A DNA stretch of 64,000 bases from NCBI GenBank assembly GCA_902489795.1, contig CABUBU010000005.1, forward strand, positions 166 to 64,165, read 5' to 3'. The notes under the pieces are model-generated. The model ran no database searches. It saw only the letters and a program-made list of their open reading frames with translations, and had not been told where the DNA came from. The DNA is from an uncultured Azospirillum sp. Lineage in GTDB: Bacteria; Pseudomonadota; Alphaproteobacteria; RF32; CAG-239. Positions 18,924-62,898 of the stretch are shown here, piece after piece (within the stretch, counting starts at the first letter, position 1; each line of letters begins with the position of its first letter). The position numbers and the translations under genes are program-made.

Positions 18924-18995
18924 ATAAAAACTCCTTTGCTTGTCATTAGACTGTTGCCAGACCGTCTTACCTAAAACAGCAAAGGAGTTTTTTAT
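18924..18995 (-). promoter_or_regulatory. Shine-Dalgarno-occluding stem-loop in the tnpA leader
   Basis: 18924-18940 (ATAAAAACTCCTTTGCT) pairs with 18978-18995 (AGCAAAGGAGTTTTTTAT). This is a ~17-bp stem with one bulge, and one arm contains the AAGGAG RBS. It matches the translational repression structure described for Salmonella IS200. Confidence 0.6.
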
Positions 18996-19059
18996 CTGTA
19001 AAGCCGTAAGCTTTTTGCAACCACGCGCCTGGCGCGTGGTTTTCTGGATACAAAAACAA

Positions 19060-50732: not shown

Positions 50733-51064
50733 TCCGCCGCAAACGACGATTCACTCGGCTGCCGCCTCTTTTTCCGCCGTTTTGCCCGGTTTCCGCACGT
50801 TTTCCTTTGTTTCCTGTCGATATCTCCGGCCGCAGCACGCCGACAACTCCCGTTCAAAAGTTCCTTCCCGCACAAATTCCGAAATTGCCGACGGAGAATT
50901 AAATGCCCAACTCCTTTCTGTCTAAACGCTTTTCCTGATCCGTCCGACCTTCTCCGCGCCGTTTTTCCTATCCCCGTCCGTTTTCCGTACAAATACACAG
51001 ACCTTTACCCAAACAGAAAACTCTTACGCCTTCTGCCAGACAAACGACCCGTTTCCGCCGGCGC

Positions 51065-51623
51065 GGCAAAGCCGACCTGACGGTCGTCCAAAGCAGTTTT
51101 ATCGGCAAGTACACCTCCGTCAATCAACAGGGAACGTCAAACTACGGCGGGGCAATTTACGGCAACGAAAAACAAACGTCAGTCAGACGCTGTTTGAAGG
51201 CAACCACGCGACCCAAACCGGCGGCTCGCTCATAACCGTCGACCCCAAATTTGAATTTCGCTATGTGCACGGACAATCCAAAAACTTCAAAACCGACAAC
51301 GGCGAAATCGGCTCCATCGATTCCACCAGTTCGCTCGTCAGCAGATTTAACCTGCAGACTTCCTACCTGCCGGAAGAGCGAACCTCAAACCGGAAACTGT
51401 TTCTGGAACTAAGACTGTACAACGAATGGATCAGCCGCACCAAAGTCAAATTTGCCGACACGCACCTCACCACTTCCGACTTAAACGGCCTCGGGTTTGA
51501 CGCGTCACTCAGGTTCAACGCCGCCGTTGCCGAAGACGCCTATTGCTGCGGCGCCGTCACCCTGGAAGCCGGTGAACCTATACCTCATACCAGTTGAACG
51601 CCGGCCTGCGGGTCAGCTTCTGA
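51065..51623 (+). pseudogene. Remnant of a Pmp-like autotransporter (frameshifted, internally deleted)
   Basis: Three frames read successively SSFIGKYTS...NYGGAIYGNE, then TLFEGNHATQTGGS...KLFLELRLYNEW...GFDASLRFNAAV, then YTSYQLNAGLRVSF-stop. The first two carry GGAI and FxxN passenger motifs. The third is a terminal beta-barrel signature ending in Phe. Confidence 0.65.
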
Positions 51624-51754: not shown

Positions 51755-54472
51755 ATGAACGATACGCAACGAACGATTGAACAGGCACTTTCCTTGCGCG
51801 CCCCGCAAAAGGAAAGCCTCGACATTCTGGTACAAATTTTAAACAAAATCGTCTTAAGCAAAGAGATGTCCGCCGACGAAGCGCTGTGCCTGATTCGGGA
51901 AGTCTGCCCTTCCGTCAAAGACTTCGAACATGCCTTTCCCTGCATTTGCTTCGCCATCGCCACCGGCGTGGGCAAAACCCGGCTGATGGGCGCAATGATC
52001 GCCTATCTGCACGCGGAAAAAGGCATAAAAAATTTCATGGTTCTGGCACCCAACCTGACAATCTACAACAAGCTCAAAACCGACTTCACGCCCAATACCG
52101 AAAAATATGTTTTTCCCGGGTTGAAAGCGCTGGTTGACGTTCCGCAAATCATCACCGGCGACGATTATCATCAGGTCGGCGGTTTGTTTGACAATCCGAA
52201 CGACAACCGTGTCCGCATCAACATTTTCAATATTTCCAAGATCGATTCCGACAAAGACGCACGCGGCATGCCGCGCGTCCGCCGAATGGCCGAATATCTG
52301 GGACAGTCTTATTTCGACTATCTTTCCGGTTTAAAGGATTTGGTTTTGATTATGGACGAAGCGCACCGTTACCGTGCCAATGCCGGTATGGCCGCCGTCA
52401 ATGAACTGCACCCGTTTTTGGGAATTGAACTGACGGCCACCGCCAAATCGACCGGCGCCAAAGGCAAGCCTTTCCGCAACATTGCCTATGAATACAATCT
52501 GGCGCACGCCATTTGCGACGGTTACGTCAAAAAACCGGCAGTCGTCGGCCGCCTGGATTTTAACTGCGACCTGTACGGAAGCGGCAATTCCGAAGCGTTG
52601 GAAAATCTGAAAATCAAAGACGGCATCAAAGTACACGAAAGCATCAAGGCGGAATTGCAGGTTTATGCCGACAACAAAAAAAACAAAACGGTCAAACCTT
52701 TTATGATGATTGTCGCCCAGAACATTGATCATGCGGAACGCATTGAGGCAAAAATAAAAAGCGACGATTTTGAAGACGGCCGCTATAAAGACAAGGTCAT
52801 CGTCGTCAACTCCAAACAAAACGGCGAACTGAAAGACGAAGTCCTGCAACGGCTGCTGGCAATCGAAAACGCCGATGAACCGACCGAAATCGTTATCCAT
52901 GTCAATATGCTGGGCGAAGGCTGGGACGTCAACAACCTTTATACTATTGTACCGCTTCGTGCCGCCGATTCCAAAATTCTGGTTGAACAGACGATCGGCC
53001 GCGGTCTGCGTCTGCCGTTCGGAAAACGAACCGGCGTTGACGTCATCGACCGCCTGCATGTGATTGCGCACGACAAATTTGCGGACATCATCAATGCCGC
53101 TCAGGCGGAGCAATTCGAGTTTCAGCGGGAATATATCGACAACACGGACAGCGGCCTGACGGGAAAAAAGGCGGAAGACAACACCAGTAAACTGGACGAC
53201 GAAGTGAAAAACGGTCATATCGTCGTCACCCGGCCGACACCGGACAAACAGGGTAAACTGCCGGTTTTTGACAACGACGTCAATAAACAGATCGGCGACA
53301 TCGTGCGCGAAGCAATTAACGAAACCAGCCGCTACGCCCTGACCGCCGAAAATCTGTTAACGCCGGATAATCAAAACAGGATTGTCGAAATCGCAACCGA
53401 AAAAATCAAGGAAATCCGGTTGGAAAATTCCGAACTGTCGCTTGAACCGCTGGTTGACGTCAAAGAAACGGCCAAGCGCTATACGGAAAGCTTCATCAAA
53501 CTGAACATTTCCGTCCCGCGGATAAAAATTCTGTACGAACAGGAAGGCGATTTTACTTTTGACGATTTTGACATCGACACCGCGGATTTTGCCGGTTATC
53601 AGCCTTTGCGACCAACAGTTATCATCGGAGAACTGATGGATAAAGGCAAACAGGACGAAATAAAGGCCGAATTTGTCGACTGCCATTCGGACATCACGCA
53701 CTACCTGCTGGTACCGCTGATCGAAGACCCGGCCATCTCATACCAGAAAAACGCCGACTTGCTGTATAAGCTGATTCATCAGGTGATTGATTACATCACT
53801 TCCTATTCCGGCAGCGAACTGAACACCCGGAAGATTCTGTACTTCCACGGTGAAAAACTGGCGCAGAAAATCTGCACGCAGATAAAAGCCCATCTGCGGG
53901 AAGCGCCGATGACCAAACGCGTCAAAATAGACAGCGGGTATGCCGCGGTCACTTCCGCCTCTTACAAAATCAGCACAACGGAAGGACAGGATGCGCTGGA
54001 TATACATGCTTTCGTCCGCGACAAGGAAAAAATCCGCAATTTGGTCTTTACCGGTTTCAACAAATGCCTGTTTGCCAAACAAAAATTCGATTCCAACACC
54101 GAAAAGGAACTGGCGGAAATTCTGGAACGCACGCCGGCCGTGCAAAAATGGTTCAAAATCAACAATGACCGCGCCGGAGAAATTTTTGACATCAAATATT
54201 CGGACGACGATCGACAAATGCACCGTTACTTGCCGGATTTCATCGTTGAAACCGTTGACGCCAAATATATGATCGAAACCAAAGCGGCAAATCAGATGAG
54301 TGACAAGGTCGTGCAGGCCAAAAAAGAAGCCGCCGTCGACTGGTGCAAAATCGCCACCGGTTTTGAACGGGAGCATCACGGCAAACCCTGGCACTACCTG
54401 TTGATCCCCGACACGACCATTGTTGCCGACCGCGGCTTTGACAAACTCGTCAACGATTTTGAGGAAGATTAA
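51755..54472 (+). CDS. res: Type III-like restriction endonuclease/helicase subunit (Res)
   Basis: 905 aa. SF2 helicase motifs I (IATGVGKT), II (IMDEAHRY) and VI (QTIGRGLRL). C-terminal PD-(D/E)xK nuclease motif (YLPDFIVET...YMIETK). Confidence 0.88.
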   Translation: MNDTQRTIEQALSLRAPQKESLDILVQILNKIVLSKEMSADEALCLIREVCPSVKDFEHAFPCICFAIATGVGKTRLMGAMIAYLHAEKGIKNFMVLAPNLTIYNKLKTDFTPNTEKYVFPGLKALVDVPQIITGDDYHQVGGLFDNPNDNRVRINIFNISKIDSDKDARGMPRVRRMAEYLGQSYFDYLSGLKDLVLIMDEAHRYRANAGMAAVNELHPFLGIELTATAKSTGAKGKPFRNIAYEYNLAHAICDGYVKKPAVVGRLDFNCDLYGSGNSEALENLKIKDGIKVHESIKAELQVYADNKKNKTVKPFMMIVAQNIDHAERIEAKIKSDDFEDGRYKDKVIVVNSKQNGELKDEVLQRLLAIENADEPTEIVIHVNMLGEGWDVNNLYTIVPLRAADSKILVEQTIGRGLRLPFGKRTGVDVIDRLHVIAHDKFADIINAAQAEQFEFQREYIDNTDSGLTGKKAEDNTSKLDDEVKNGHIVVTRPTPDKQGKLPVFDNDVNKQIGDIVREAINETSRYALTAENLLTPDNQNRIVEIATEKIKEIRLENSELSLEPLVDVKETAKRYTESFIKLNISVPRIKILYEQEGDFTFDDFDIDTADFAGYQPLRPTVIIGELMDKGKQDEIKAEFVDCHSDITHYLLVPLIEDPAISYQKNADLLYKLIHQVIDYITSYSGSELNTRKILYFHGEKLAQKICTQIKAHLREAPMTKRVKIDSGYAAVTSASYKISTTEGQDALDIHAFVRDKEKIRNLVFTGFNKCLFAKQKFDSNTEKELAEILERTPAVQKWFKINNDRAGEIFDIKYSDDDRQMHRYLPDFIVETVDAKYMIETKAANQMSDKVVQAKKEAAVDWCKIATGFEREHHGKPWHYLLIPDTTIVADRGFDKLVNDFEED

Positions 54473-54561
54473 TGTAAAATATTTCATACACAGCAGTGTC
54501 AAGCAACATTGACATTTCGCATAAAATGTCGTATATTTACATTATATCGAGGAGCACGACA

Positions 54562-55335
54562 ATGACAAATGTTTTAAGAAGCCTGAGAGAACAAAAAGGC
54601 ATCTCTCAGGAAGAGTTAGCGTCTGAATTAAAAATAAGCCGTCAGACCCTGAGCAAATACGAAAACGAAGAAACTAAATTTTCTTTAGACATCATAAAAA
54701 AACTGGCCAGATTTTTTGATGTCGATTACTCATGCTTCATCGACAACAAAATGCCGCCGGAAACAACCTATAACATTATAGGAAACACGCCCAAAGAAAA
54801 CAAGACCGATATCCGCATCAACATTCCGCAGGAAAATATCAACAAATTCAAACAGGTTCTGCTTTATATCCTTAACAAAGTCGGCGCCAAACCGAATGTC
54901 GGGCAAACGGTAATTTACAAGCTTCTTTACTTCATAGATTTCGATTATTACGAAATATACGAAGAACAGCTGATGGGACTGAAATATATCAAAAATACAT
55001 ACGGCCCGACGCCGGTTGATTTTGCCAAATTAATAAAACAGATGGAAGACGACGGTTCTTTGGAAGAAATAAAAACCAAATATTTCAACCATGACCAAAC
55101 CAAATATCTTCCCCGCATACAACCGGATTTGTCCCTGCTTTCCGGACAGGAGCTGGCGCATATCGACAAAGAACTGGAACGCCTTGCCGGCCGGACGGGA
55201 AAAGAACTGTCGGAATTCTCGCATAAGGACATTCCGTGGATCGGCGCGGAAATGAACGAGGTTTTGGAGTACGAGGCCGTTTTTTACAGAACCCCGGAAA
55301 CTTCTGTTCGGGAGTATGACGAAGCAGATGATTAA
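54562..55335 (+). CDS. XRE-HTH plus Panacea (DUF4065/SocA-like) domain antitoxin
   Basis: ATG at 54562 with GGAG 8 nt upstream. HTH LREQKGISQEELASELKISRQTLSKYE. C-terminal domain with IYKLLYFIDFDYYEIYEEQLMGLKYIKNTYGPTPVDF, typical of DUF4065. Confidence 0.8.
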   Translation: MTNVLRSLREQKGISQEELASELKISRQTLSKYENEETKFSLDIIKKLARFFDVDYSCFIDNKMPPETTYNIIGNTPKENKTDIRINIPQENINKFKQVLLYILNKVGAKPNVGQTVIYKLLYFIDFDYYEIYEEQLMGLKYIKNTYGPTPVDFAKLIKQMEDDGSLEEIKTKYFNHDQTKYLPRIQPDLSLLSGQELAHIDKELERLAGRTGKELSEFSHKDIPWIGAEMNEVLEYEAVFYRTPETSVREYDEADD

Positions 55336-55699
55336 CTACGTAACTGTTCCCGAGTTTGACAAGGATTTCAAAACCGTGTCAAAAAAATTCCGAACTTTGG
55401 AAAAAGATTTCGGACATATGAAAAAATACACGATAGAAACGTTTTACGAAAAAGGTGTCCCGACAACGGCGTTTGTCCCCATTGAAGGTTTTTGTGGAGA
55501 AAACTATACTTCCAACAAAATGCGCAAGTTTTCCTGCCAGTCGTTAAAAGGCAGAGGTTCGGCATCGGGTATCAGGGTTATTTTCATCTGGGAAGAAGAA
55601 ACGCGAAAAATAACTTTTATCGAAATCTATTTTAAGGCAGATCAAGCCAACGAAAACAAAGAACGCCTGCAAAAATTTATAAAAGAAAATTTCGGATAG
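55316..55699 (+). CDS. RelE/ParE-superfamily-like toxin (putative)
   Basis: 127 aa (or 123 from ATG 55328). Overlaps the antitoxin stop by 20 or 8 nt. The C-terminal block GIRVIFIWEEETRKITFIEIYFK resembles the R-hh-Y...I-x-h-h-x-h core of RelE/ParE toxins (motif memory). Confidence 0.55.
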   Translation: MTKQMINYVTVPEFDKDFKTVSKKFRTLEKDFGHMKKYTIETFYEKGVPTTAFVPIEGFCGENYTSNKMRKFSCQSLKGRGSASGIRVIFIWEEETRKITFIEIYFKADQANENKERLQKFIKENFG

Positions 55700-55710
55700 G
55701 ATAATTCAAT

Positions 55711-56469
55711 ATGTATTGTTACTTGTTCTATGAGTTCTATACTCCGACACAAACATCTCATTCAATTTACAACTGGTGGAAAGATATCTGGTTGCCGGCG
55801 GCCGGTGCAATAGCAATTCCATTACTGGTTTGGTGGTTAAGTTGGCTTTTTGGAGCAAGCCGTGCTGAACAACAAAAGGAATTGAGAGATTTGAGAAATA
55901 ATCTTAATTTGCTTTCATCTATACTACTATCAACCTTTCAATCTCTGCTGTCATTAAAAGAAAATTTTGAAAACTGTCAAAAAATATATCCGTTAAAAAT
56001 TACTCCTTATGATAAAATAAATAAAATTGACAAATGTTTATTCATTGATTTTCCAATACTGAATAATATTGATATTTCTAAATACTCCCCTTGTATAAAT
56101 GCATATGGTAATTTTGTTATCGACTTAGTGAATATTAAACAAGGTTGTCGCATATTAAACGAAATGATTTTGCACAGAAATGAAGTGTTAAAATCAATCG
56201 GTTCCTGTGAGGATGAGCACATGAAAAAACTCAGAATTTTTGATTTTATTGCCGAAGATTCTGAAAATAATATTTCTAATCTGATGAGAACGAACAAACT
56301 AATACTGGAAATAAAAGAACTGGTTGATAAAATAAATATTTTAAAAACAAAAATAAAAGGCCTAAACTTAGAAGAAGTAACATTTGATGAAAACTCTTTA
56401 CAGCAATTTAAAAATATAAAATTAGAAATTGAGAAATTTATTCAAGATACAAAGGAACCAAATAAATGA
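55711..56469 (+). CDS. Orphan single-pass membrane protein translationally coupled to mod
   Basis: 252 aa, very AT-rich. One TM helix (WLPAAGAIAIPLLVWWLSWLF) followed by a helical/coiled Asn/Lys/Ile/Leu-rich domain. The stop overlaps the mod ATG (ATGA at 56466-56469). No family recognised. Confidence 0.65.
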   Translation: MYCYLFYEFYTPTQTSHSIYNWWKDIWLPAAGAIAIPLLVWWLSWLFGASRAEQQKELRDLRNNLNLLSSILLSTFQSLLSLKENFENCQKIYPLKITPYDKINKIDKCLFIDFPILNNIDISKYSPCINAYGNFVIDLVNIKQGCRILNEMILHRNEVLKSIGSCEDEHMKKLRIFDFIAEDSENNISNLMRTNKLILEIKELVDKINILKTKIKGLNLEEVTFDENSLQQFKNIKLEIEKFIQDTKEPNK

Positions 56470-58787
56470 CTGAAAAATTGCAGAGACTGGAACTGACATG
56501 GCCGGGGAAGGAAGACCGATTTAACCCGGAACCGCGGATACTGCTGGAAGACAAGGGAAAGTCCTATTCCAAACCTGTAATTTCTTCCCCTTTGCGTGAA
56601 AAAGAACGCTCTTCCGCCATTTCCTCCCCCTTGAGGAGGGAGGATAAAGGAGAGGGTGAACAACCCAGTTTCCTTCCTTTAAGTAGCAAAGAATGCTCTT
56701 CCGTCATTTCCTCCCCCTTGAGGGGGGAGGATAAAGGAGAGGGTGAACAACCCAGTTTCCTTCCTTTAAGTAGCAAAGAATGCTCTTCCGTCATTTCCTC
56801 CCCCTTGAGGGGGGAGGATAAAGGAGAGGGTGAACAACCTAACCTCCTTTCTTTAGCAAAAAAAATGAGGCATAATCCGACAGAAGCCGAAAATAAAATG
56901 TGGCAAATTCTGCGTAACAATCAATTAGGTTATAAAATACGACGTCAACATCAGATAGGCCAATACATAGTTGATTTTATATGTTTGGAAAAAAAATTAA
57001 TTATTGAATGCGATGGCGGCCAACATAATGAAACCGTCGACAAGGAAAGAACACTTTTTTTGGAAAATGAAGGCTTTAGAGTTATTCGTTTTTGGAATAA
57101 TGAAATATTAAATAATATAGAAGGATGTTGGGAGATAATTCAAAAAAGCCTGAATGATTGTACCCCTCACCCTAACCCTCTCCCCCAAGGGGCGAGGAAT
57201 TCCATTGTCCTTGAAACCTCTCCCTTGAGGGAAGAAGGCGACACTTTAGTGTCGAGCGAGGGTGATAAGTTAAATCTACTTAAGACGAAGAGAATTCAAC
57301 CGACTTTCGACAATATGCTGATCCACGGCGACAACCTGCTGGCCTTGAAAGCCCTGGAGCAGGACTATACCGGTAAAATCAAATGTATTTACATAGATCC
57401 GCCGTACAATACAGGTAACGCTTTCGAACATTATGACGACGGACTGGAACACTCCATCTGGCTTTCGCTGATGAGAGACAGATTGGAGATTTTGAGAAGA
57501 TTATTAAGTAATGACGGAGGCAGTATTTGGATTTCCATTGATGCGGACGAAAGTCATTACCTGAAAGTCCTTTGTGATGAAATTTTTGGCCGTCAATGTT
57601 TTGTTGATGAAGTTATCTGGCAACGAGCCTTTGCTCCTGTAAATTTAAAGAAAACGCTTTCACGTTCTCACGATACAATTTTAGTATATTGCAAAAATCC
57701 TATTAATTTTATCTTAAATACATTACCAAGAAGTGATAAACAATGTGAAAATTATAAAAATCCAGACAATGACCCCAGAGGTGCATGGACATCGGCAGAT
57801 TGTACTGTGGGACCTGTAGTTGAAGAAAAACTCTATGAAATAATAACTCCTGGGGGACGTTCTGTATTTCCTCCCGAAGGACGTTGTTGGTTATTTTCTA
57901 AAGATAGATTTGAAGAAGTGGTAGCAGATAATCGTATATGGTTTGGAAAAAATGGCAATAATGCACCTCGTGTAAAAAAATTTATATCAGAAGTCAAAGG
58001 CGGGGTTGTTGCGACAACGCTCTGGACCCGTGATGAATGTGGGGATAATCAGGAAGCTAAAAGAGAAATCAAGGCTTTATTTCCTGATGAAAAAAATCCG
58101 TTCGATACACCTAAACCCGAACGTTTAATTCAAAGAATCTTAACATTAGCATCCAACCCCGGCGATCTTGTTTTAGACAGCTTTTTAGGTTCAGGAACGA
58201 CTGCCGCCGTAGCGCAAAAAATGGGACGTCGCTGGATTGGGGTGGAAATGGGCGACCATGTTTACACACATTGCATTCCCCGCCTGAAAAAAGTAATCGA
58301 CGGCGAAGATCAGGGCGGCATCACCAAAACCGTCAACTGGCAGGGCGGCGGCGGTTTCAAATTCTATGAACTGGCTTCTTCCCTGATCGTGACCGACAAA
58401 TACGGCCAGCAGATCATTTCCAAAGAATACAACGCCGACATGCTGGCCGAAGCCATGTGCAAAATCTTAGGCTATCACTATAAACCGGATAAGGAAATTT
58501 ACTGGAAACAGGGCTTTTCTTCCGAAAAGAACTTTATCTATACCACCACCATGAGCTTGCAGGAAAGTTCGCTTGACCGCCTCGCCGAAGAAATCGGCGA
58601 CAACAACCTGCTGATTTGTTGCAGCGCCTTTGTCGGCAACAGCAGGATATATCCTAACATCTCGGTCAAAAAAATTCCCGCCGCTATCCTCAAAAAATGC
58701 GAATGGGGCCGCGAAGGCTACCCCCTCAACCTCCGCAACTACCACCCAACCGACGAAGAATTTGAATTCGAGGAGGAAGAGGAATAA
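56466..58787 (+). CDS. mod: Type III-like N6-adenine/N4-cytosine DNA methyltransferase (Mod) with an in-frame DUF559 endonuclease-domain insertion
   Basis: N-terminus LELTWPGKEDRFNPEPRILLED, motif IV IYIDPPYNTGN, motif I DSFLGSGTTAAVAQ (beta-class order). Residues ~35-265 are repeats plus a DUF559/Vsr-like domain (MWQILRNNQLGYKIRRQHQIGQYIVDFICLEKKLIIECDGGQH...RVIRFWNNEIL). Confidence 0.88.
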   Translation: MTEKLQRLELTWPGKEDRFNPEPRILLEDKGKSYSKPVISSPLREKERSSAISSPLRREDKGEGEQPSFLPLSSKECSSVISSPLRGEDKGEGEQPSFLPLSSKECSSVISSPLRGEDKGEGEQPNLLSLAKKMRHNPTEAENKMWQILRNNQLGYKIRRQHQIGQYIVDFICLEKKLIIECDGGQHNETVDKERTLFLENEGFRVIRFWNNEILNNIEGCWEIIQKSLNDCTPHPNPLPQGARNSIVLETSPLREEGDTLVSSEGDKLNLLKTKRIQPTFDNMLIHGDNLLALKALEQDYTGKIKCIYIDPPYNTGNAFEHYDDGLEHSIWLSLMRDRLEILRRLLSNDGGSIWISIDADESHYLKVLCDEIFGRQCFVDEVIWQRAFAPVNLKKTLSRSHDTILVYCKNPINFILNTLPRSDKQCENYKNPDNDPRGAWTSADCTVGPVVEEKLYEIITPGGRSVFPPEGRCWLFSKDRFEEVVADNRIWFGKNGNNAPRVKKFISEVKGGVVATTLWTRDECGDNQEAKREIKALFPDEKNPFDTPKPERLIQRILTLASNPGDLVLDSFLGSGTTAAVAQKMGRRWIGVEMGDHVYTHCIPRLKKVIDGEDQGGITKTVNWQGGGGFKFYELASSLIVTDKYGQQIISKEYNADMLAEAMCKILGYHYKPDKEIYWKQGFSSEKNFIYTTTMSLQESSLDRLAEEIGDNNLLICCSAFVGNSRIYPNISVKKIPAAILKKCEWGREGYPLNLRNYHPTDEEFEFEEEEE
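56565..57265 (+). other. In-frame insertion module inside mod: hairpin repeats - DUF559 domain - hairpin repeats
   Basis: DUF559 domain at ~56865-57160. Left flank: 87-bp tandem repeats, each with the hairpin CCTCCCCC-TTGA-GGGGGAGG. Right flank: hairpins CCTCTCCCCCAAGGGGCGAGG, CTCTCCCTTGAGGGAAGAAG and CGACACTTTAGTGTCG. The mod sequence resumes at ...FDNMLIHGDNLLALKAL. Confidence 0.7.
56578..56860 (+). repeat. ~3.2 copies of an 87-bp (29-codon) tandem repeat
   Basis: AGGATAAAGGAGAGGGTGAACAACC starts at 56641, 56728 and 56815 (period exactly 87), with a diverged partial copy at 56578-56640. The array is open in frame on both strands. Confidence 0.9.
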
Positions 58788-58903: not shown

Positions 58904-59640
58904 GTCATGCCTCCGACGGGCAAAAAGCCCGGCGGATCAGGCATCTTTTGCCCCTCCGGTCATCACCTTTGTTCAGGCATCTTTTGAAAAAGGAAAAACA
59001 TTGTATAATCCCTAAACTCGCTCGCTCACGCTCCCTCGCGGGATGACAGTCTGAAGAGGGTTCACGCTCCCTCGCGGGATGACAACCTCAAATTGTCATG
59101 CCTCCGACGGGCGAAAAGCCCGGCGGATCAGGCATCTTTTGCCCCTCCGGTCATCACCTTTGTTCAGGCATCTTTTGAAAAAGGAAAAACATTGTATAAT
59201 CCCTAAACTCGGTCGCTCACGCTCCCTCGCGGGATGACAACCTCAAATTGCCATGCCTCCGACGGGCAAAAAGCCCGGCGGATCAGGCATCTTTTGCCCT
59301 TCTGTTACTCCCTTTGAACAGGCTCCTCCTGAAAAAGGAAAAAACATTGTAAGATCCCTAAACTCGGTCGCTCACGCTCCCTCGCGGGATGACAACTTCA
59401 AATTGTCATGCCTCCGACAGGCGAAAAGCCCGGCGGATCAGGCATCTTTTGCCCCTCCGGTCATCACCTTTGTTCAGGCATCTTTTAAAAAAGGAAAAAC
59501 ATTGTAAGATCCCTAAACTCGGTCGCTCCCACTCCCTCGCGGGATGACAGTCTGAAGAGGGTTCACGCTCCCTCGCGGGATGACAGTCTGAAGAGGGTTC
59601 ACGCTCCCTCGCGGCAGAATGACGGCTTGGAGTATCTGCT
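58904..59640. repeat. Four tandem copies of a 155-191-bp unit with nested 36-bp sub-repeats
   Basis: Units start at 58904, 59095, 59250 and 59405 with G(T/C)CATGCCTCCGAC(G/A)GGC(A/G)AAAAGCCCGGCGGATCAGGCATCTTTTGCCC. Each ends in one to three copies of TCACGCTCCCTCGCGGGATGACAGTCTGAAGAGGGT. There are no unique spacers. Confidence 0.92.
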
Positions 59641-59728: not shown

Positions 59729-60007
59729 TCAAAATAATCGTTCGTACAAATCAGACCACTCAGGGTTGTTTTCTTCTATCAATCTTATCTTCACTTTCCG
59801 AAACGCTTTTTTCAAAAACTTTTCCCGGGCAATAGCCTCATTTTCGCCAACAATCTCCTCAAAATAAACCAGCCGGATCAGATTATAACGCTTGGTAAAC
59901 CCTTCAAACAGCTTGTTCCTGTGCTCATAAACCCTTCTCGTCAGGTCTTTTGTCACTCCGACATACAGCGTTCCGCCTTTTTTGTTACTCATAATGTAAA
60001 CGTACAT
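59729..60007 (-). CDS. Small GIY-YIG nuclease family protein (COG2827/UPF0213-like)
   Basis: 92 aa: MYVYIMSNKKGGTLYVGVTKDLTRRVYEH...LVYFE...AIAREKFLK. The ATG shares one nucleotide with the SNF2 stop (TGATG at 60005-60009). Confidence 0.85.
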   Translation of the reverse strand: MYVYIMSNKKGGTLYVGVTKDLTRRVYEHRNKLFEGFTKRYNLIRLVYFEEIVGENEAIAREKFLKKAFRKVKIRLIEENNPEWSDLYERLF

Positions 60008-62898
60008 CAGCTTTTTACTTCCCAGGTAACATCAAACACCTGTTCAATGGTGTAATCCAATTTCAGACTGCGCTTTTTGCCGCCGATGAGGCGGTTGCAC
60101 TTCTTTTCCAGCTCACGCTCAATGTCAAAAGTATTGAACTCGTTATCGTTCATTTCTTTTTGCAGACGTTTGATTTCTTCATCCAAAGCCAGTTTTTTTG
60201 CAAAATCTTTCTCCAACTTAAACTGGCGTTTCAGATTGCCGATCTTATTTTTCATCTTTTCGCCTTTCAGATGAATGGCCTGTTTTTCATCCGCCAACCA
60301 GCGAGTAAGCTTGTCTACCTCAATTTTTAACAAAACATCGACCCGGTGCTTTTCGGATTTCTCATATTCGGCAATATTCCTTTCGTGCAGCCGCCGAATC
60401 AAATCCTGATACCCCATCTCAACCGGCGCAGCCGTTTTCCGCACATTATCAAAAATGTCTTCCGGTTTCAAATTTAACGCTTCGCCGTGATCGTCAATAA
60501 CTGCCGACAACAGACGAAAAGACTTTTCCGGCGCATTTTGCCTGAACAAAGACAAAATCAGCCGCCCGCGTTGTCCGGATTTTAACTTGTCTCCCGCCTT
60601 CAACAACAAATGGCACGCCTCGACCGGCTGCGCCAGCGCCTCCCGTAAAATAATCCGCCCGAACTCACTGTCCGGATTGTACGGCGTAGCTCCCCGCCAA
60701 ACGGCTTTGCGATCCTGCGGAGAAAGAAAACGATTATTGTCGCGGCTTGAAAAATCCAGACAGAAATTGAAATTCTTATTGAAAACAATGTCCGACGGCC
60801 GGTCAAAAACCTGTTCTTCAAAAGGGCCGAACACCTGCCGCGCCGGATTGATAAACATATCAGGATGATTTTTTTCCAGCATGATAACCGACAAATCCCA
60901 GAAAATTTGCTTGCGGCGTTCCAAATAATCTTCAACCCTCCGCTTGATGACCTGCAGTTTTTCCTGTGTGGTCGGGTTCAGGTTTTCCAGAACCAACTGG
61001 CGCGTTTCTTCCATTTTGGCATCACGCTTCACGCCAAGGCTTGCCTGTAATTCGTCAAAAGCACGGTTAATTTCCTCGGTTGTCCGGCACAATTCAAATA
61101 TGGAGGCCACCGCACGCTCAAAATCCACGCCGTCGGACAATGTGCCCAAAATTTCGTCGCTGGCACCGAATACATCGTCAAACAATTTAAATTTATATTG
61201 CAAAATATCATAAAGGCGCACATCGGCAAGATTCTGTTTGTTGATAAAATTGATGATTACAACATCGCATTTTTGCTTATAACGATGAATACGCCCGATT
61301 CTCTGTTCTATTCTTTGCGGATTCCACGGCAAATCGTAATTGACCAGCAGCGAACAAAACTGCAAATTCAGCCCCTCGGCCGCCGCCTCGGTGGCAATCA
61401 TGATTTCCGCCTCTTCCCTGAAAGCCGCAACCAGAGCTTTTTTCATATCGTTGGCTCGCGAACCGGTCAGCTCCGCCGAGTGATTTTCGACAAAATCGTT
61501 GTAAATCCGATTGCAAAGCGGGGAATTGTTCTGACCGTTAAAGGTGATGATTTTATCCTTAAAACCGTGAGCCGAAAGATAATCGAAAAGATAATTCAAA
61601 GTCCGGTTGCTTTCCGTAAAAATAATTACCTTGCGCAAACCTCCCTTTTCCCTGATTTTTTCAAATCCCCGGTTGATCGCGCCGACAAGCTTTTCCGTCT
61701 TGCCGTCAACTTCGATTTTACCCGCCTTGTCAATCAACGACTGCAAAAATTCCTTTTCGGCTTTAAGGTCAGCATCCGTCGGATAATTCTTAGCATAAGC
61801 GTTGCGGCAGCGATCGTCAAAATCCGACAGGGAATCCTGATATTCTTCCAGCAAATCTTCATCAAACACAATAAGATCACCGGTGTTTCCGCCAAGTTTC
61901 TCAATACGGCACAGCCTTTCCATCAACTTTTCCAATGTTCCTTTGACCGCCGCGGTGGAGGAACTCATCAATTTGCGTATCATCAGAACAATCAGCGTAC
62001 GATAACGGGTGGTAACGGCAATCTTTGAAACATCCTGAATATAAGCCGAAACTTCCCGGTAAAGTTCTTCTTCCGCTGGAGTCGGATTAAACGCAACAGT
62101 CATTGCCTCGCGATTGGTATATTTAATATACTCCGAAACATCTTTGCGCAAAGTGCGATGCAAAACGCATTTTAAACGTTCTTTCAGCTCAATATGATGC
62201 CGTTCGGAATACAGGTAATTTTCCATAAAAGAATATTCATTGCCCAAAATATGCGGATCAATAATCGTTACCAGCGAAAAAATGTCCATCAGAGAATTTT
62301 GAATGGGCGTTGCCGTCAACAAAAGCTTTTTCTTACCGTAAAAAGCCTCATTAATCCCGTCAGCCGTTTTAGTCTTGCCTTTATAAAAATTACGGAGCTT
62401 ATGCGCTTCGTCCAAAACGACCAGATCCCAATCATGTTGTTTCATGCAATCTTTTAGCTGCACCGCACAATTATACGAACAAACCGTCACGCCTTTAAAC
62501 AACAGCGGATTTTCCTTTTCCGACTTCAAAGCCTTGCCATAAATCCCGGCCTCAATAACCCGGGTCGGCAAATTAAATTTTTCCTGCATTTCAGCCTGCC
62601 ATTGCTGGCAAAGACTTGCCGGCGCAACAACCAGAACGGAAGTTCGGCCGCGTGAAAAATATTCGGAAACGACGATACCTGCCTCAATCGTCTTTCCCAA
62701 ACCGACTTCATCGGCCAGAATAACACCTTGCGACAACGGGGATTTCAAGGCAAACAACGCCGCTTCGATTTGATGCGGATTCATATCAATTTTAGATGTT
62801 TCCAATGAACCGGAAATGTTTCCCATATCCGCCTGGTTATTGGAAGCTAAAACTTCCAAAGCCCAATATTTTGCTTTTATTTCTTCTGTCGTTATCAT
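60007..62898 (-). CDS. SNF2/RAD54-family helicase with ~350-aa uncharacterised C-terminal region
   Basis: 963 aa. Motifs I ADEVGLGKTIEAG, II LVVLDEAHKLRN, III LLLTATPIQNSL and VI QRIGRIHRYKQ. The C-terminal third has no recognised motif and ends in a coiled-coil-like Lys/Glu-rich segment. Confidence 0.9.
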   Translation of the reverse strand: MITTEEIKAKYWALEVLASNNQADMGNISGSLETSKIDMNPHQIEAALFALKSPLSQGVILADEVGLGKTIEAGIVVSEYFSRGRTSVLVVAPASLCQQWQAEMQEKFNLPTRVIEAGIYGKALKSEKENPLLFKGVTVCSYNCAVQLKDCMKQHDWDLVVLDEAHKLRNFYKGKTKTADGINEAFYGKKKLLLTATPIQNSLMDIFSLVTIIDPHILGNEYSFMENYLYSERHHIELKERLKCVLHRTLRKDVSEYIKYTNREAMTVAFNPTPAEEELYREVSAYIQDVSKIAVTTRYRTLIVLMIRKLMSSSTAAVKGTLEKLMERLCRIEKLGGNTGDLIVFDEDLLEEYQDSLSDFDDRCRNAYAKNYPTDADLKAEKEFLQSLIDKAGKIEVDGKTEKLVGAINRGFEKIREKGGLRKVIIFTESNRTLNYLFDYLSAHGFKDKIITFNGQNNSPLCNRIYNDFVENHSAELTGSRANDMKKALVAAFREEAEIMIATEAAAEGLNLQFCSLLVNYDLPWNPQRIEQRIGRIHRYKQKCDVVIINFINKQNLADVRLYDILQYKFKLFDDVFGASDEILGTLSDGVDFERAVASIFELCRTTEEINRAFDELQASLGVKRDAKMEETRQLVLENLNPTTQEKLQVIKRRVEDYLERRKQIFWDLSVIMLEKNHPDMFINPARQVFGPFEEQVFDRPSDIVFNKNFNFCLDFSSRDNNRFLSPQDRKAVWRGATPYNPDSEFGRIILREALAQPVEACHLLLKAGDKLKSGQRGRLILSLFRQNAPEKSFRLLSAVIDDHGEALNLKPEDIFDNVRKTAAPVEMGYQDLIRRLHERNIAEYEKSEKHRVDVLLKIEVDKLTRWLADEKQAIHLKGEKMKNKIGNLKRQFKLEKDFAKKLALDEEIKRLQKEMNDNEFNTFDIERELEKKCNRLIGGKKRSLKLDYTIEQVFDVTWEVKS

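What the first reader, a model, noticed from the sequence alone, without database searches (positions are those of the whole stretch)
56565..57265. DUF559 (Vsr-like endonuclease) domain inserted in frame into the N-terminal linker of a Type III Mod methyltransferase
Seen in sequence: the mod reading frame runs from the typical N-terminus (LELTWPGKED...PRILLEDKGKSY) into ~230 extra residues and then resumes at FDNMLIHGDNLLALKAL...IYIDPPYNTGN. The extra segment is a complete DUF559 domain (QYIVDFICLEKKLIIECDGGQH...RFWNNE). G/C hairpins on both sides translate as SPLRGEDKGEG / PNPLPQGAR. From memory, free-standing DUF559 genes are often bracketed by exactly this kind of SPLP-x-GER-coding hairpin, which suggests a mobile cassette. 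Here it landed, or was selected, so that the host ORF stays open. The result could be a methyltransferase-endonuclease fusion. An internal ATG (56865) could also express DUF559 alone.
Basis: partly seen in the sequence, partly recalled or inferred. Interest (0 to 1): 0.7.

Follow-up and report, generated by a model that had tools for sequence, protein, structure and literature searches.

The report
Nuclease cassette inside a methyltransferase gene
A small nuclease gene (DUF559) bracketed by GC-rich hairpin repeats sits in frame inside a restriction-modification methyltransferase gene, and the same kind of cassette occurs inside many unrelated bacterial proteins, which suggests a selfish element that persists by being translated as part of its host protein.

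Summary
The Type III mod ORF (56466-58787, 773 aa) contains a 727-nt segment (56571-57297) where the nearest cassette-free allele, 99% identical elsewhere, has 40 nt. That is 229 extra codons, in frame. The segment holds a complete DUF559 (Vsr-fold) nuclease domain with every conserved catalytic residue. It is flanked by copies of a GC-rich palindromic module, one of them amplified into an 87-nt in-frame tandem array.

The site is the poorly conserved linker between the ELTWxGK motif and the methyltransferase core. About 1 in 10 close Mod alleles carry the cassette. It is combined with different target-recognition domains, and filled and empty alleles coexist in two diverged gut lineages. It has diverged as much as the rest of the locus, under purifying selection (dN/dS about 0.13).

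The cassette type is general. DUF559 genes from many phyla sit between such modules, and 36 of the 150 closest representative clusters are proteins of 300 aa or more; for those checked, DUF559 lies inside or fused to unrelated hosts such as tRNA synthetases, RecG, NadE, Sua5, HsdS and Type IIG enzymes.

Most likely it is a selfish, REP/RAYT-like or homing-like nuclease cassette tolerated in a disordered linker. The internal ATG cannot yield DUF559 alone. Nuclease activity and mobility were not tested.

The parts
56466..58787 (+). Type III mod ORF, 773 aa, open across the cassette
   Evidence: PADLOC MTase_III 5e-193
56490..56510 (+). Conserved N-terminal ELTWPGK motif of Type III Mod (aa 9-15)
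   Evidence: Aligns to YELTWTGK (from residue 56) of H. pylori Mod 6K0W. Nearly invariant in alignment A1.
56571..57297 (+). Whole inserted segment (cassette). The nearest empty allele has 40 nt here.
   Evidence: blastn of the window against L001; alignments A1 and A2
56601..56839 (+). 87-nt (29-codon) in-frame tandem repeat, 2.7 copies, each carrying the left hairpin. Copy number differs between strains (about 0.7, 1.7, 2.7, and at least 4).
56797..56833 (+). Left palindromic module next to DUF559: 10-bp hairpin plus purine-rich third arm (CCTCCCCCTTGAGGGGGGAGG ATAAAG GAGAGGGTGA). Earlier copies at 56623 and 56710.
   Evidence: the degenerate pattern hits more than 120 metagenome contigs
56858..56867 (+). 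A8 tract ending in the internal in-frame ATG (56865). It has no stop codon of its own downstream.
   Evidence: the tract is the same length (A8) in L003 and L043
56841..57164 (+). DUF559 (Vsr-fold PD-(D/E)xK) nuclease domain. Conserved residues E142, D170, E181, D183, H187 and D192 are intact.
   Evidence: 3HRL, E 1e-24; pLDDT 75-87
57164..57198 (+). Right palindromic module: pyrimidine-rich arm plus imperfect hairpin (CCCTCACCCTAACCCTCTCCCCCAAGGGGCGAGGA). It is an imperfect inverted copy of the left module.
57217..57254 (+). Further degenerate hairpin (CCTCTCCCTTGAGGG) and a small hairpin (CGACAC-TTTA-GTGTCG), both inside the inserted segment
57298..57401 (+). About 100-nt tract right of the cassette holding 5 of the mismatches to the empty allele, followed by 517 nt with none. 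Probable co-conversion tract.
57378..58262 (+). N6_N4_Mtase domain. DPPY lies at 57396-57407; the FxGxG-type motif DSFLGSGTT lies at aa 571-579.
51755..54472 (+). Type III Res subunit, 905 aa, with helicase and a C-terminal PD-(D/E)xK region of its own

Best explanation
The 727-nt segment is a DUF559 nuclease cassette. It is a Vsr-fold PD-(D/E)xK nuclease reading frame nested between copies of a GC-rich REP-like palindromic module. It sits in the poorly conserved, probably disordered linker between the ELTWxGK motif and the catalytic core of a Type III Mod.

The following is shown. The cassette has no start or stop codon of its own at its ends, so the only open reading of it is as part of Mod. 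That gives a 773-aa protein in which a separately folding nuclease domain hangs between low-complexity tethers. It is present in a minority of otherwise near-identical alleles in two diverged lineages. It occurs with different target-recognition domains. It has diverged in step with the locus, and it is under purifying selection with all catalytic residues kept.

The following is inferred. The cassette is a selfish element related in logic to REP/RAYT systems and to homing endonuclease genes. Its nuclease acts on DNA, most plausibly on the palindromic modules or on cassette-free alleles. It spreads or is retained through recombinational repair. The host tolerates it because it lies in a permissive linker and keeps the frame. 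Mod methylation and Res restriction are expected to be unaffected. Any contribution of the nuclease to restriction would be secondary.
For: Anatomy and boundaries. The nuclease looks functional. All 34 positions that are at least 85% conserved in 58 free-standing DUF559 proteins are kept in the 6 Mod-embedded copies, with one conservative change (F158I) in type 1. dN/dS is about 0.13 between the two lineages. The domain matches 3HRL at E 1e-24 and is confidently folded, while its flanks have pLDDT below 30.

Polymorphism and recombination: the window and L001 are 99% identical outside the cassette, with 0 synonymous differences in 193 target-recognition-domain codons. Mismatches cluster in the first 104 nt to the right of the cassette. 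The same cassette occurs with another target-recognition domain (P0002-P0008). In the second lineage, filled P0009 and empty P0063 are 97% identical.

Ancient residence: the cassette in L004 is 72.9% identical at nt level, against 67-78% for the rest of that locus.

Generality: hairpin modules flank DUF559 in 30 of 34 loci. The flanks are copies of one module, with a median alignment score of 57 against 16 for control flanks. Clean in-frame insertions bounded by the modules occur in a PuuD-type amidotransferase. DUF559 with module-coded flanks also lies in frame inside TsaB/YeaZ-like, HhH-GPD and peptidase M14 proteins, Type IIG enzymes of Campylobacter and Helicobacter, and LeuRS-like, GluRS, RecG, NadE and Sua5 proteins. 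Of the 150 best representative clusters, 36 are 300 aa or longer. Modules are mostly solo: only 8 of 120 have DUF559 beside them, which parallels the REP-to-RAYT ratio.

Precedents: Vsr-fold nucleases act as homing endonucleases (PMC3239194). A DUF559 protein causes DNA damage in vivo when a methyltransferase is absent (PMC12907096).
Against: No nuclease activity, target or mobility has been demonstrated. No near-identical cassette copies at non-homologous sites were found. Every DUF559 pair with at least 80% nt identity among the GTDB species-representative loci is orthologous, except L007/L009. No free copy more than 70% identical to the window's was found. No target-site duplication was seen. 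The empty allele's 40-nt linker is unrelated to the cassette's edges, so the difference is a replacement rather than a simple insertion. The window's right-hand hairpin is imperfect, as expected for an old and possibly immobile copy. About 8 of 36 long host proteins are R-M proteins, which could point to a functional partnership instead. Long-term purifying selection would equally fit a domesticated function.
Confidence: 0.55

Rival explanations
1. Domesticated second nuclease. The DUF559 domain is now a working part of the R-M enzyme. For example, it could be a Mod-tethered nicking or cleavage module that supplements Res, or a methylation-linked repair or addiction nuclease in the manner of Vsr/Dcm or Caulobacter VsrA/ScmA.
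For: The domain is under purifying selection and all catalytic residues are kept across a divergence where synonymous sites are saturated. It sits at the same site in two lineages. R-M proteins are over-represented among hosts of the closest DUF559 relatives, including HsdS, Type ISP/Eco57I-like enzymes and another N6_N4_Mtase. DUF559 proteins are enriched among predicted programmed-inversion targets together with R-M genes (PMC9881135). A DUF559 protein is functionally linked to a methyltransferase in Caulobacter (PMC12907096).
Against: About 90% of close Mod alleles lack the domain, including alleles that are 96-98% (lineage 1) or 97% (lineage 2) identical outside the insert, so it is dispensable. 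Res has its own helicase and PD-(D/E)xK region. The same cassette sits in housekeeping enzymes where a nuclease has no obvious role. Mod is an N6/N4-class enzyme, not a C5 methyltransferase, so Vsr-type T:G repair has no rationale.
Confidence: 0.22
2. Neutral passenger. This would be a fossil insertion that is merely tolerated in a disordered linker, with an inactive or irrelevant nuclease. Presence or absence would reflect only recombination between alleles.
For: The linker is hypervariable in length and sequence among empty alleles (12-21 aa). The flanks are predicted to be disordered. The right-hand hairpin has decayed. No recent transposition is detectable.
Against: dN/dS is about 0.13 over 119 codons with synonymous sites saturated. 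All 34 family-conserved positions are retained. None of the 11 allele clusters has a frameshift or stop codon.
Confidence: 0.12
3. Ancestral Mod domain lost in most lineages, rather than an insertion.
For: Two diverged lineages have it at the same linker.
Against: 109 of the 120 best homologues lack it. The solved Mod structures 6K0W and 4ZCF match only the Mod part of the query, and the only PDB match to the DUF559 segment is the free-standing protein 3HRL. The segment carries the same flanking modules as free-standing DUF559 genes. Its nearest relatives are free-standing genes.
Confidence: 0.05
4. Spliced element, either an intein or an intron carrying a homing endonuclease, so that the mature Mod lacks the segment.
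For: Vsr-fold (EDxHD) nucleases are known inside inteins and group I introns (PMC3239194). There is a weak match to I-Bth0305I (3R3P, E 0.2).
Against: Pfam finds no Hint/intein domain. The flanks are about 90 and 40 residues of low-complexity sequence, too short and too unlike splicing domains. Rfam finds no intron in the window.
Confidence: 0.02

Closest known systems
Type III R-M modification subunits (EcoP15I Mod, PDB 4ZCF; H. pylori Mod, PDB 6K0W)
   Same: Beta-class N6_N4 methyltransferase with DPPY before FxGxG, a central variable target-recognition domain, an N-terminal ELTWxGK motif, and a partner Res in the locus.
   Different: It carries 229 extra residues with a nuclease fold in the N-terminal linker. 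Res lies upstream and is separated from mod by an HTH-Panacea gene and two small ORFs.
Free-standing DUF559 / 'endonuclease domain-containing' proteins (N. gonorrhoeae protein, PDB 3HRL; Caulobacter VsrA, CCNA_02930)
   Same: Same Pfam family, same conserved residues, and the same flanking GC-rich palindromic modules.
   Different: It has no start or stop codon of its own and is translated inside a host protein. The nearest free-standing relative found is only 70% identical.
EDxHD homing endonucleases (I-Bth0305I, PDB 3R3P; PMC3239194)
   Same: Vsr-fold catalytic domain used by a selfish element. There is presence/absence polymorphism at one site, with a flanking tract that looks co-converted.
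   Different: It has no NUMOD/HTH DNA-binding region and no intron or intein, and the sequence match is only marginal (E 0.2). The product stays in the host protein.
Rickettsia palindromic elements and other in-frame MITEs (PMC10969869)
   Same: Palindromic repeats inserted in frame into unrelated genes at permissive sites. Solo copies of the module here do the same.
   Different: RPEs are about 150 bp and encode no enzyme. This unit carries a 100-aa nuclease domain and is found across many phyla.
REP sequences and their RAYT transposases
   Same: Many solo GC-rich palindromes and a rare nuclease gene nested between two of them. The nuclease genes are vertically inherited at fixed loci.
   Different: RAYTs are HUH/Y1 enzymes, whereas this is a PD-(D/E)xK nuclease. 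The palindromes lack the GTAG/CGTC tags. No functional link between DUF559 and the modules has been shown.

Membership tests
Type III Mod methyltransferase | N6_N4_Mtase domain with motif IV (DPPY) ahead of motif I (FxGxG) | tested here: met
   PF01555 3e-46. IDPPYNT lies at aa 310-316 and DSFLGSGTT at aa 571-579. PADLOC MTase_III 5e-193.
Type III Mod methyltransferase | Partner Res subunit (helicase plus nuclease) in the same locus | tested here: met
   51755-54472: ResIII 3e-22 and PADLOC REase_III 5e-174. The gene order is res, three ORFs, then mod.
Type III Mod methyltransferase | m6A methylation of an asymmetric site | not testable with these tools
   Needs methylome sequencing or a biochemical assay.
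DUF559 (PF04480), Vsr-fold PD-(D/E)xK | Profile match above the curated threshold | tested here: met
   120.9 bits against a cut-off of 20.6. 3HRL matches at E 1e-24.
DUF559 (PF04480), Vsr-fold PD-(D/E)xK | Conserved acidic and His residues (E, D, ExD, H, D) | tested here: met
   E142, D170, E181, D183, H187 and D192 are kept in all 6 embedded copies.
DUF559 (PF04480), Vsr-fold PD-(D/E)xK | Nuclease activity | not testable with these tools
True Vsr (T:G mismatch endonuclease paired with a C5 methyltransferase) | Vsr profile match and a cognate m5C methyltransferase | tested here: not met
   The Pfam scan reported only DUF559 and MTES_1575 for this segment. The host methyltransferase is N6/N4 class.
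EDxHD homing endonuclease | Location in a group I intron or an intein | tested here: not met
   No Hint domain and no intron family.
EDxHD homing endonuclease | N-terminal NUMOD/HTH DNA-binding region | tested here: not met
   Pfam reports no DNA-binding domain in the flanks, which are low-complexity hairpin-coded sequence.
EDxHD homing endonuclease | Filled and empty alleles at one site, with flanking co-conversion | tested here: met
EDxHD homing endonuclease | Cleavage of the empty allele | not testable with these tools
   An experiment is needed.
In-frame MITE (RPE-like) | Terminal inverted repeats | tested here: met
   The flanks are an imperfect inverted pair in the window (alignment score 37 against 12 for control flanks). 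The inverted orientation scores higher than the direct one in 19 of 31 loci.
In-frame MITE (RPE-like) | Short, non-coding-capacity element present in many copies per genome | tested here: inconclusive
   The unit is 727 nt and encodes an enzyme. The module occurs nowhere else in the 64-kb window. The rest of the genome is not available.
In-frame MITE (RPE-like) | Target-site duplication | tested here: inconclusive
   None is recognisable at the junctions. The empty-site linker is not homologous.
REP/RAYT system | HUH/Y1 transposase | tested here: not met
   The enzyme is a PD-(D/E)xK nuclease.
REP/RAYT system | Nuclease gene flanked by the palindromes that are otherwise mostly solo | tested here: met
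   30 of 34 DUF559 loci are flanked on both sides. Only 8 of 120 module loci have DUF559 beside them.

The most novel reading that the evidence does not exclude
DUF559 genes and their flanking GC-rich palindromic modules form a widespread, undescribed class of selfish element. It would be a PD-(D/E)xK counterpart of the REP/RAYT system. Its nuclease reading frame is open through both ends, so the element can live unspliced and in frame inside host proteins (Mod here; elsewhere tRNA synthetases, RecG, NadE, Sua5, HsdS and Type IIG enzymes). This would be a third strategy beside introns and inteins for a nuclease gene to occupy a coding sequence without destroying it.
Probability: 0.3. Interest if true: 0.85.

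Novelty: new variant of a known kind. Interest (0 to 1): 0.64.

Why it matters
DUF559 is one of the most abundant uncharacterised nuclease families: 23,491 representative clusters at E up to 1e-3 in a library clustered at 50% identity. Two patterns suggest a concrete, testable function for the family. DUF559 genes are almost always nested between copies of one palindromic module. The bounded unit also recurs in frame in loops and linkers of unrelated, often essential proteins. Together these point to a nuclease tied to REP-like repeats and give a route by which selfish DNA adds folded domains to host proteins without splicing.

For restriction-modification biology, this locus provides natural, near-isogenic Mod alleles with and without a tethered nuclease. 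That is a ready-made experiment on whether such a fusion alters restriction or methylation.

For genome annotation, it explains why bare DUF559 proteins are sometimes labelled 'adenine-specific DNA-methyltransferase', and why gene callers produce odd fusions across these cassettes.

Tried and rejected
1. Internal start producing DUF559 alone is rejected. There is no stop codon before 58787, and the 638-aa database protein P0012 that begins at that ATG comes from a scaffold with a run of N inside the repeat array.

2. Phase variation through the A8 tract or the repeats has no support. The tract is A8 in the window, L003 and L043 and is absent in L004. The repeat periods (87 and 33 nt) are multiples of three.

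3. Intein or intron is rejected.

4. An internal promoter or terminator has no support. Promoter-like sites are at the shuffled expectation, and there are no terminator-like sites.

5. Searching for a recent donor copy failed. No free-standing DUF559 more than 70% identical was found in the 5.8-billion-protein set, and none above 57% in the GTDB species representatives. The two DUF559 word-index searches did not return the Mod fusions themselves, so their sensitivity is limited.

6. The locus is not carried on a known plasmid or phage. No plasmid record covers more than 36% of the mod gene, and only 3 of 50,697 phage records have a distant DUF559 match.

7. The full-length AlphaFold model was poor (mean pLDDT 46), because the Mod homologues are too similar to one another. 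Only the DUF559 domain and the low confidence of its flanks are usable. I ran no fold search.

8. The exact 37-mer of the window's module gave 0 hits in JGI metagenomes.

9. The organism could not be named. Cluster look-ups carry no names, and the window has no tRNA or rRNA. Sample names point to human gut metagenomes.

10. I dropped the argument contrasting repeat periods in coding and non-coding arrays, because the non-coding array in L038 has a 42-nt period, which is also a multiple of three.
Full report
**1. What is in the sequence**

The ORF 56466..58787 (+) is open for 773 aa. Pfam finds N6_N4_Mtase at aa 305-599 (3e-46) and DUF559 at aa 128-229 (2.8e-35). PADLOC calls the protein a Type III methyltransferase (5e-193). 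It calls the 905-aa protein at 51755-54472 a Type III restriction subunit (5e-174).

The left flank is an 87-nt tandem repeat of 29 codons, 2.7 copies at 98% match, spanning 56601-56839, and each unit carries the hairpin. The left hairpin has a 10-bp stem (-11.2 kcal/mol, z -2.5). The right one is imperfect (-6.1 kcal/mol). Neither motif occurs elsewhere in the 64-kb window or in shuffled versions of it.

**2. Boundaries, and insertion rather than an ancestral domain**

Of the 120 best Mod homologues, 11 clusters carry DUF559 and 109 do not.

- The closest empty alleles (P0010, P0011) are 96-98% identical to the window protein outside the insert.
- At DNA level the window and the empty locus L001 are about 99% identical on both sides. 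Window 56571-57297 (727 nt) stands where L001 has 40 unrelated nt, a net 229 codons.
- The site is the linker between the nearly invariant LELTWPGKED...KSYS and PTFDNMLIHGDN. Among empty alleles this linker varies from 12 to 21 residues with little sequence conservation.
- The H. pylori Mod structure 6K0W has the same ELTWTGK motif, followed by a poorly aligned stretch before the catalytic core. 'N-terminal linker' is therefore an accurate description.

**3. Population and evolutionary pattern**

- Between the window and L001 the 193 target-recognition-domain codons show 0 synonymous and 1 non-synonymous difference.
- Five mismatches lie in the first 104 nt to the right of the cassette, and the next 517 nt have none. 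The filled allele L003 shares the window's state there at four of these five positions. This looks like a co-conversion tract.
- The same cassette is joined to a completely different target-recognition domain in P0002-P0008.
- Repeat copy number differs between strains. L003 has about 0.7 copies, P0002 about 1.7, the window 2.7, and L043 at least 4, where the assembler left a gap.
- A second lineage (L004/P0009, P0026) has a cassette at the same linker, with the same ISSPLR...GEDKGEG left flank and a 33-nt in-frame repeat. The whole locus of that lineage is only 67-78% identical to the window at nt level.
- The cassette in that second lineage is 72.9% identical at nt level, as diverged as mod itself (74%) and res (71%). 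Filled (P0009) and empty (P0063) alleles that are 97% identical coexist in that lineage too.
- Between the two lineages the DUF559 core has dN 0.26 with saturated dS, giving dN/dS of about 0.13.

I read this as one old insertion that has persisted as a presence/absence polymorphism and is shuffled by homologous recombination. Two independent insertions of related cassettes into the same linker cannot be excluded.

**4. State of the nuclease domain**

- The domain matches the N. gonorrhoeae DUF559 protein 3HRL at E 1e-24. It matches the EDxHD homing endonuclease I-Bth0305I (3R3P) only marginally, at E 0.2.
- All 34 positions that are at least 85% conserved in 58 free-standing relatives are retained in the six Mod-embedded copies. 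These include E142, D170, E181, D183, H187 and D192. The one exception is a conservative F158I in type 1.
- In the AlphaFold model only this domain is confident (pLDDT 75-87). Residues 1-124 and 233-293 score below 30. The rest of Mod is unreliable because the alignment is shallow.

**5. The internal ATG**

Translation from ATG 56865 would run to the mod stop codon and give 638 aa, not DUF559 alone. The database protein that starts there (P0012) comes from a scaffold with an N run in the repeat array.

The free-standing relative L038 has a purine-rich, Shine-Dalgarno-like stretch and an ATG directly after the module. The window and L004 have no ATG at the equivalent position. There are no terminator-like sites inside the segment, and promoter-like sites do not exceed the shuffled expectation.

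**6. The cassette is a general unit**

The flanking modules:

- The closest free-standing gene (P0255/L038, 70% identical) has the same hairpin plus purine arm just before its start codon. A 42-nt hairpin array follows its stop codon, and after that the upstream module is repeated.
- In 34 loci from Alphaproteobacteria, Gammaproteobacteria, Campylobacterota, Elusimicrobia, Planctomycetes and gut metagenomes, 30 have a GC-rich hairpin within 200 nt on both sides. The density is 7.3 per kb against 1.06 per kb elsewhere in the same loci.
- The two flanks are copies of one module of about 40 nt, made of a hairpin plus a third arm. The median local alignment score is 57, against 16 for control flanks. 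The inverted orientation scores higher in 19 of 31 loci. L017 gives 49 of 50 identical positions. This orientation explains why the N side translates as SPLxGE..GEG and the C side as PxPxPLPxGxRE.

In-frame occurrence inside other proteins:

- The unit lies in frame inside unrelated proteins, and in the cases I could check its edges fall exactly at the modules.
- In a PuuD-type amidotransferase the host sequence matches PDB 3FIJ residues 27-164 and 174-241 on either side of the insert.
- Other hosts are TsaB/YeaZ-like, HhH-GPD and peptidase M14 proteins.
- Three different Type IIG or ISP-like R-M enzymes of Campylobacter and Helicobacter also carry the unit.
- In an exhaustive search of 1.84 billion representative proteins, 36 of the 150 best hits are 300 aa or longer.
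- Their host families include HsdS, Type_ISP_C, N6_N4_Mtase, a LeuRS-like synthetase, GluRS, RecG, PriA, NadE, Sua5, TrmD, MPG and HydF. Among the ten checked individually, DUF559 lies within the catalytic domain of the two synthetases and between annotated domains in RecG, NadE and Sua5.
- Some of these 'fusions' are probably read-through across intergenic cassettes. P0396, which combines a biotinyl domain, DUF559 and PriA, is an example.

The reverse test, starting from the module:

- Only 8 of those 120 have DUF559 next to the module, 7 of them within 150 nt.
- 93 of 120 are at ORF ends or intergenic. 10 lie inside long ORFs.
- By my reading of their sequence motifs, these long ORFs include TrpC-like, UDP-glucose dehydrogenase-like and DsbD-like proteins.

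So there are many solo palindromes and a rare nuclease gene nested between two of them.

Limits on the evidence for mobility: among the GTDB species-representative loci, every DUF559 pair with at least 80% nt identity sits at an orthologous locus. The exception is L007/L009, which are 82% identical and lie in different R-M host genes. Movement is therefore rare, and most copies are inherited vertically.

**7. Mechanism**

Shown:

- a bounded nuclease cassette in frame in a permissive linker;
- a conserved nuclease domain under purifying selection;
- polymorphism with recombinational exchange between alleles;
- the same unit inside many other hosts.

Inferred, and my preferred reading (0.55): the cassette is a selfish element with the logic of REP/RAYT systems or homing endonuclease genes. 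Its nuclease works on the modules or on cassette-free DNA, and its persistence depends on recombinational repair. The host tolerates it because frame and fold are preserved. Two precedents support this. Vsr-fold nucleases act as homing enzymes (PMC3239194), and a DUF559 protein damages DNA in vivo when a methyltransferase is missing (PMC12907096).

Rivals:

- Domestication as a second nuclease of the R-M enzyme (0.22). This is favoured by the excess of R-M hosts (about 8 of 36) and by long retention. It is disfavoured by dispensability in about 90% of alleles and by Res having its own nuclease.
- Neutral relic (0.12). This is disfavoured by the selection signal.
- Ancestral domain (0.05).
- Spliced element (0.02).

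**8. Comparison with what is known**

The host is an ordinary Type III Mod and the insert an ordinary DUF559 member. What is unusual is how they are combined.

- The closest analogies are in-frame palindromic elements such as the Rickettsia RPEs (PMC10969869), REP/RAYT, and intein- or intron-borne EDxHD endonucleases.
- It fails defining features of each of these. It encodes an enzyme, the enzyme is not an HUH transposase, and there is no splicing element.
- In the searchable literature only 25 papers mention DUF559. Of the 22 listed I judged most from titles and abstract openings and opened six. None of these describes the palindrome association or in-frame residence.
- One paper lists DUF559 proteins as enriched among predicted programmed-inversion targets, alongside R-M genes (PMC9881135). 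That fits genes flanked by inverted repeats.

I cannot exclude a description in literature outside this library.

**9. Verdict**

I rate it a new variant of a known kind. Interest is moderate to high (0.64), mainly because the Mod case opens onto a general and apparently undescribed behaviour of a very large nuclease family. Nuclease activity, its target and actual mobility remain untested.

Noticed in passing
window 59062-59614: A 155-nt tandem repeat (3.1 copies, 88% match) runs into a 36-nt perfect tandem repeat (2.3 copies). It lies in the mod to GIY-YIG intergenic region. The contigs of L001 and L003 end at this array.
   Followed up: partly
window 59729-60007 (-): A 92-aa GIY-YIG nuclease gene lies directly downstream of mod. 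It is conserved at the same position in the diverged locus L004 and in L043. It is a second small nuclease gene in the same island.
   Followed up: partly
window 55711-56469 (+): A 252-aa ORF with no Pfam or PADLOC match and very low GC (26-28%) whose end overlaps the mod start. It is present in L003 and L043 but absent from the otherwise 99%-identical locus L001, so it is a second presence/absence polymorphism next to the cassette.
   Followed up: partly
window 54496-55699 (+): An HTH plus SocA/Panacea antitoxin-like gene and a 127-aa ORF are nested between res and mod. Other alleles carry Bro-N and other cargo at this position (L035, L036). The res-mod gap appears to be a cargo hotspot.
   Followed up: partly
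window 60007-62898 (-): A 963-aa SNF2 helicase matches PADLOC DrmD (DISARM) at 3e-189. It is a conserved neighbour of the Type III system in several loci.
   Followed up: no
window 50896-51370: A 475-nt segment absent from L001. It lies in a stretch without a long ORF that, by my reading of the sequence, looks like an autotransporter remnant upstream of res.
   Followed up: no
L014 6016-6447; L007 and L009 host ORFs: In Campylobacter troglodytis the DUF559 domain is itself split in frame by a hairpin-coded insert. The Campylobacter and Helicobacter host enzymes also carry a different in-frame repeat that translates as ...CHSERSEES...RDIS....
   Followed up: no
L081 259-1290 (-); L048 8485-9939 (-); L110 1651-3054 (-); L089 1943-4297 (+): Solo copies of the palindromic module sit in frame inside ORFs that, from their motifs, look like TrpC, UDP-glucose dehydrogenase and DsbD. 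The two UDP-glucose dehydrogenase-like ORFs are from different organisms and carry the insert at the same site.
   Followed up: partly
window 18933-19041 (-): Rfam hit to the STnc490 Hfq-binding sRNA, just above the gathering score (58.1 against 56 bits). It was the only RNA family found in the window.
   Followed up: no
P0188, P0198: Bare 141-aa DUF559 proteins are labelled 'adenine-specific DNA-methyltransferase' by one source. This is probably annotation transfer from methyltransferase-DUF559 fusions such as this one.
   Followed up: no
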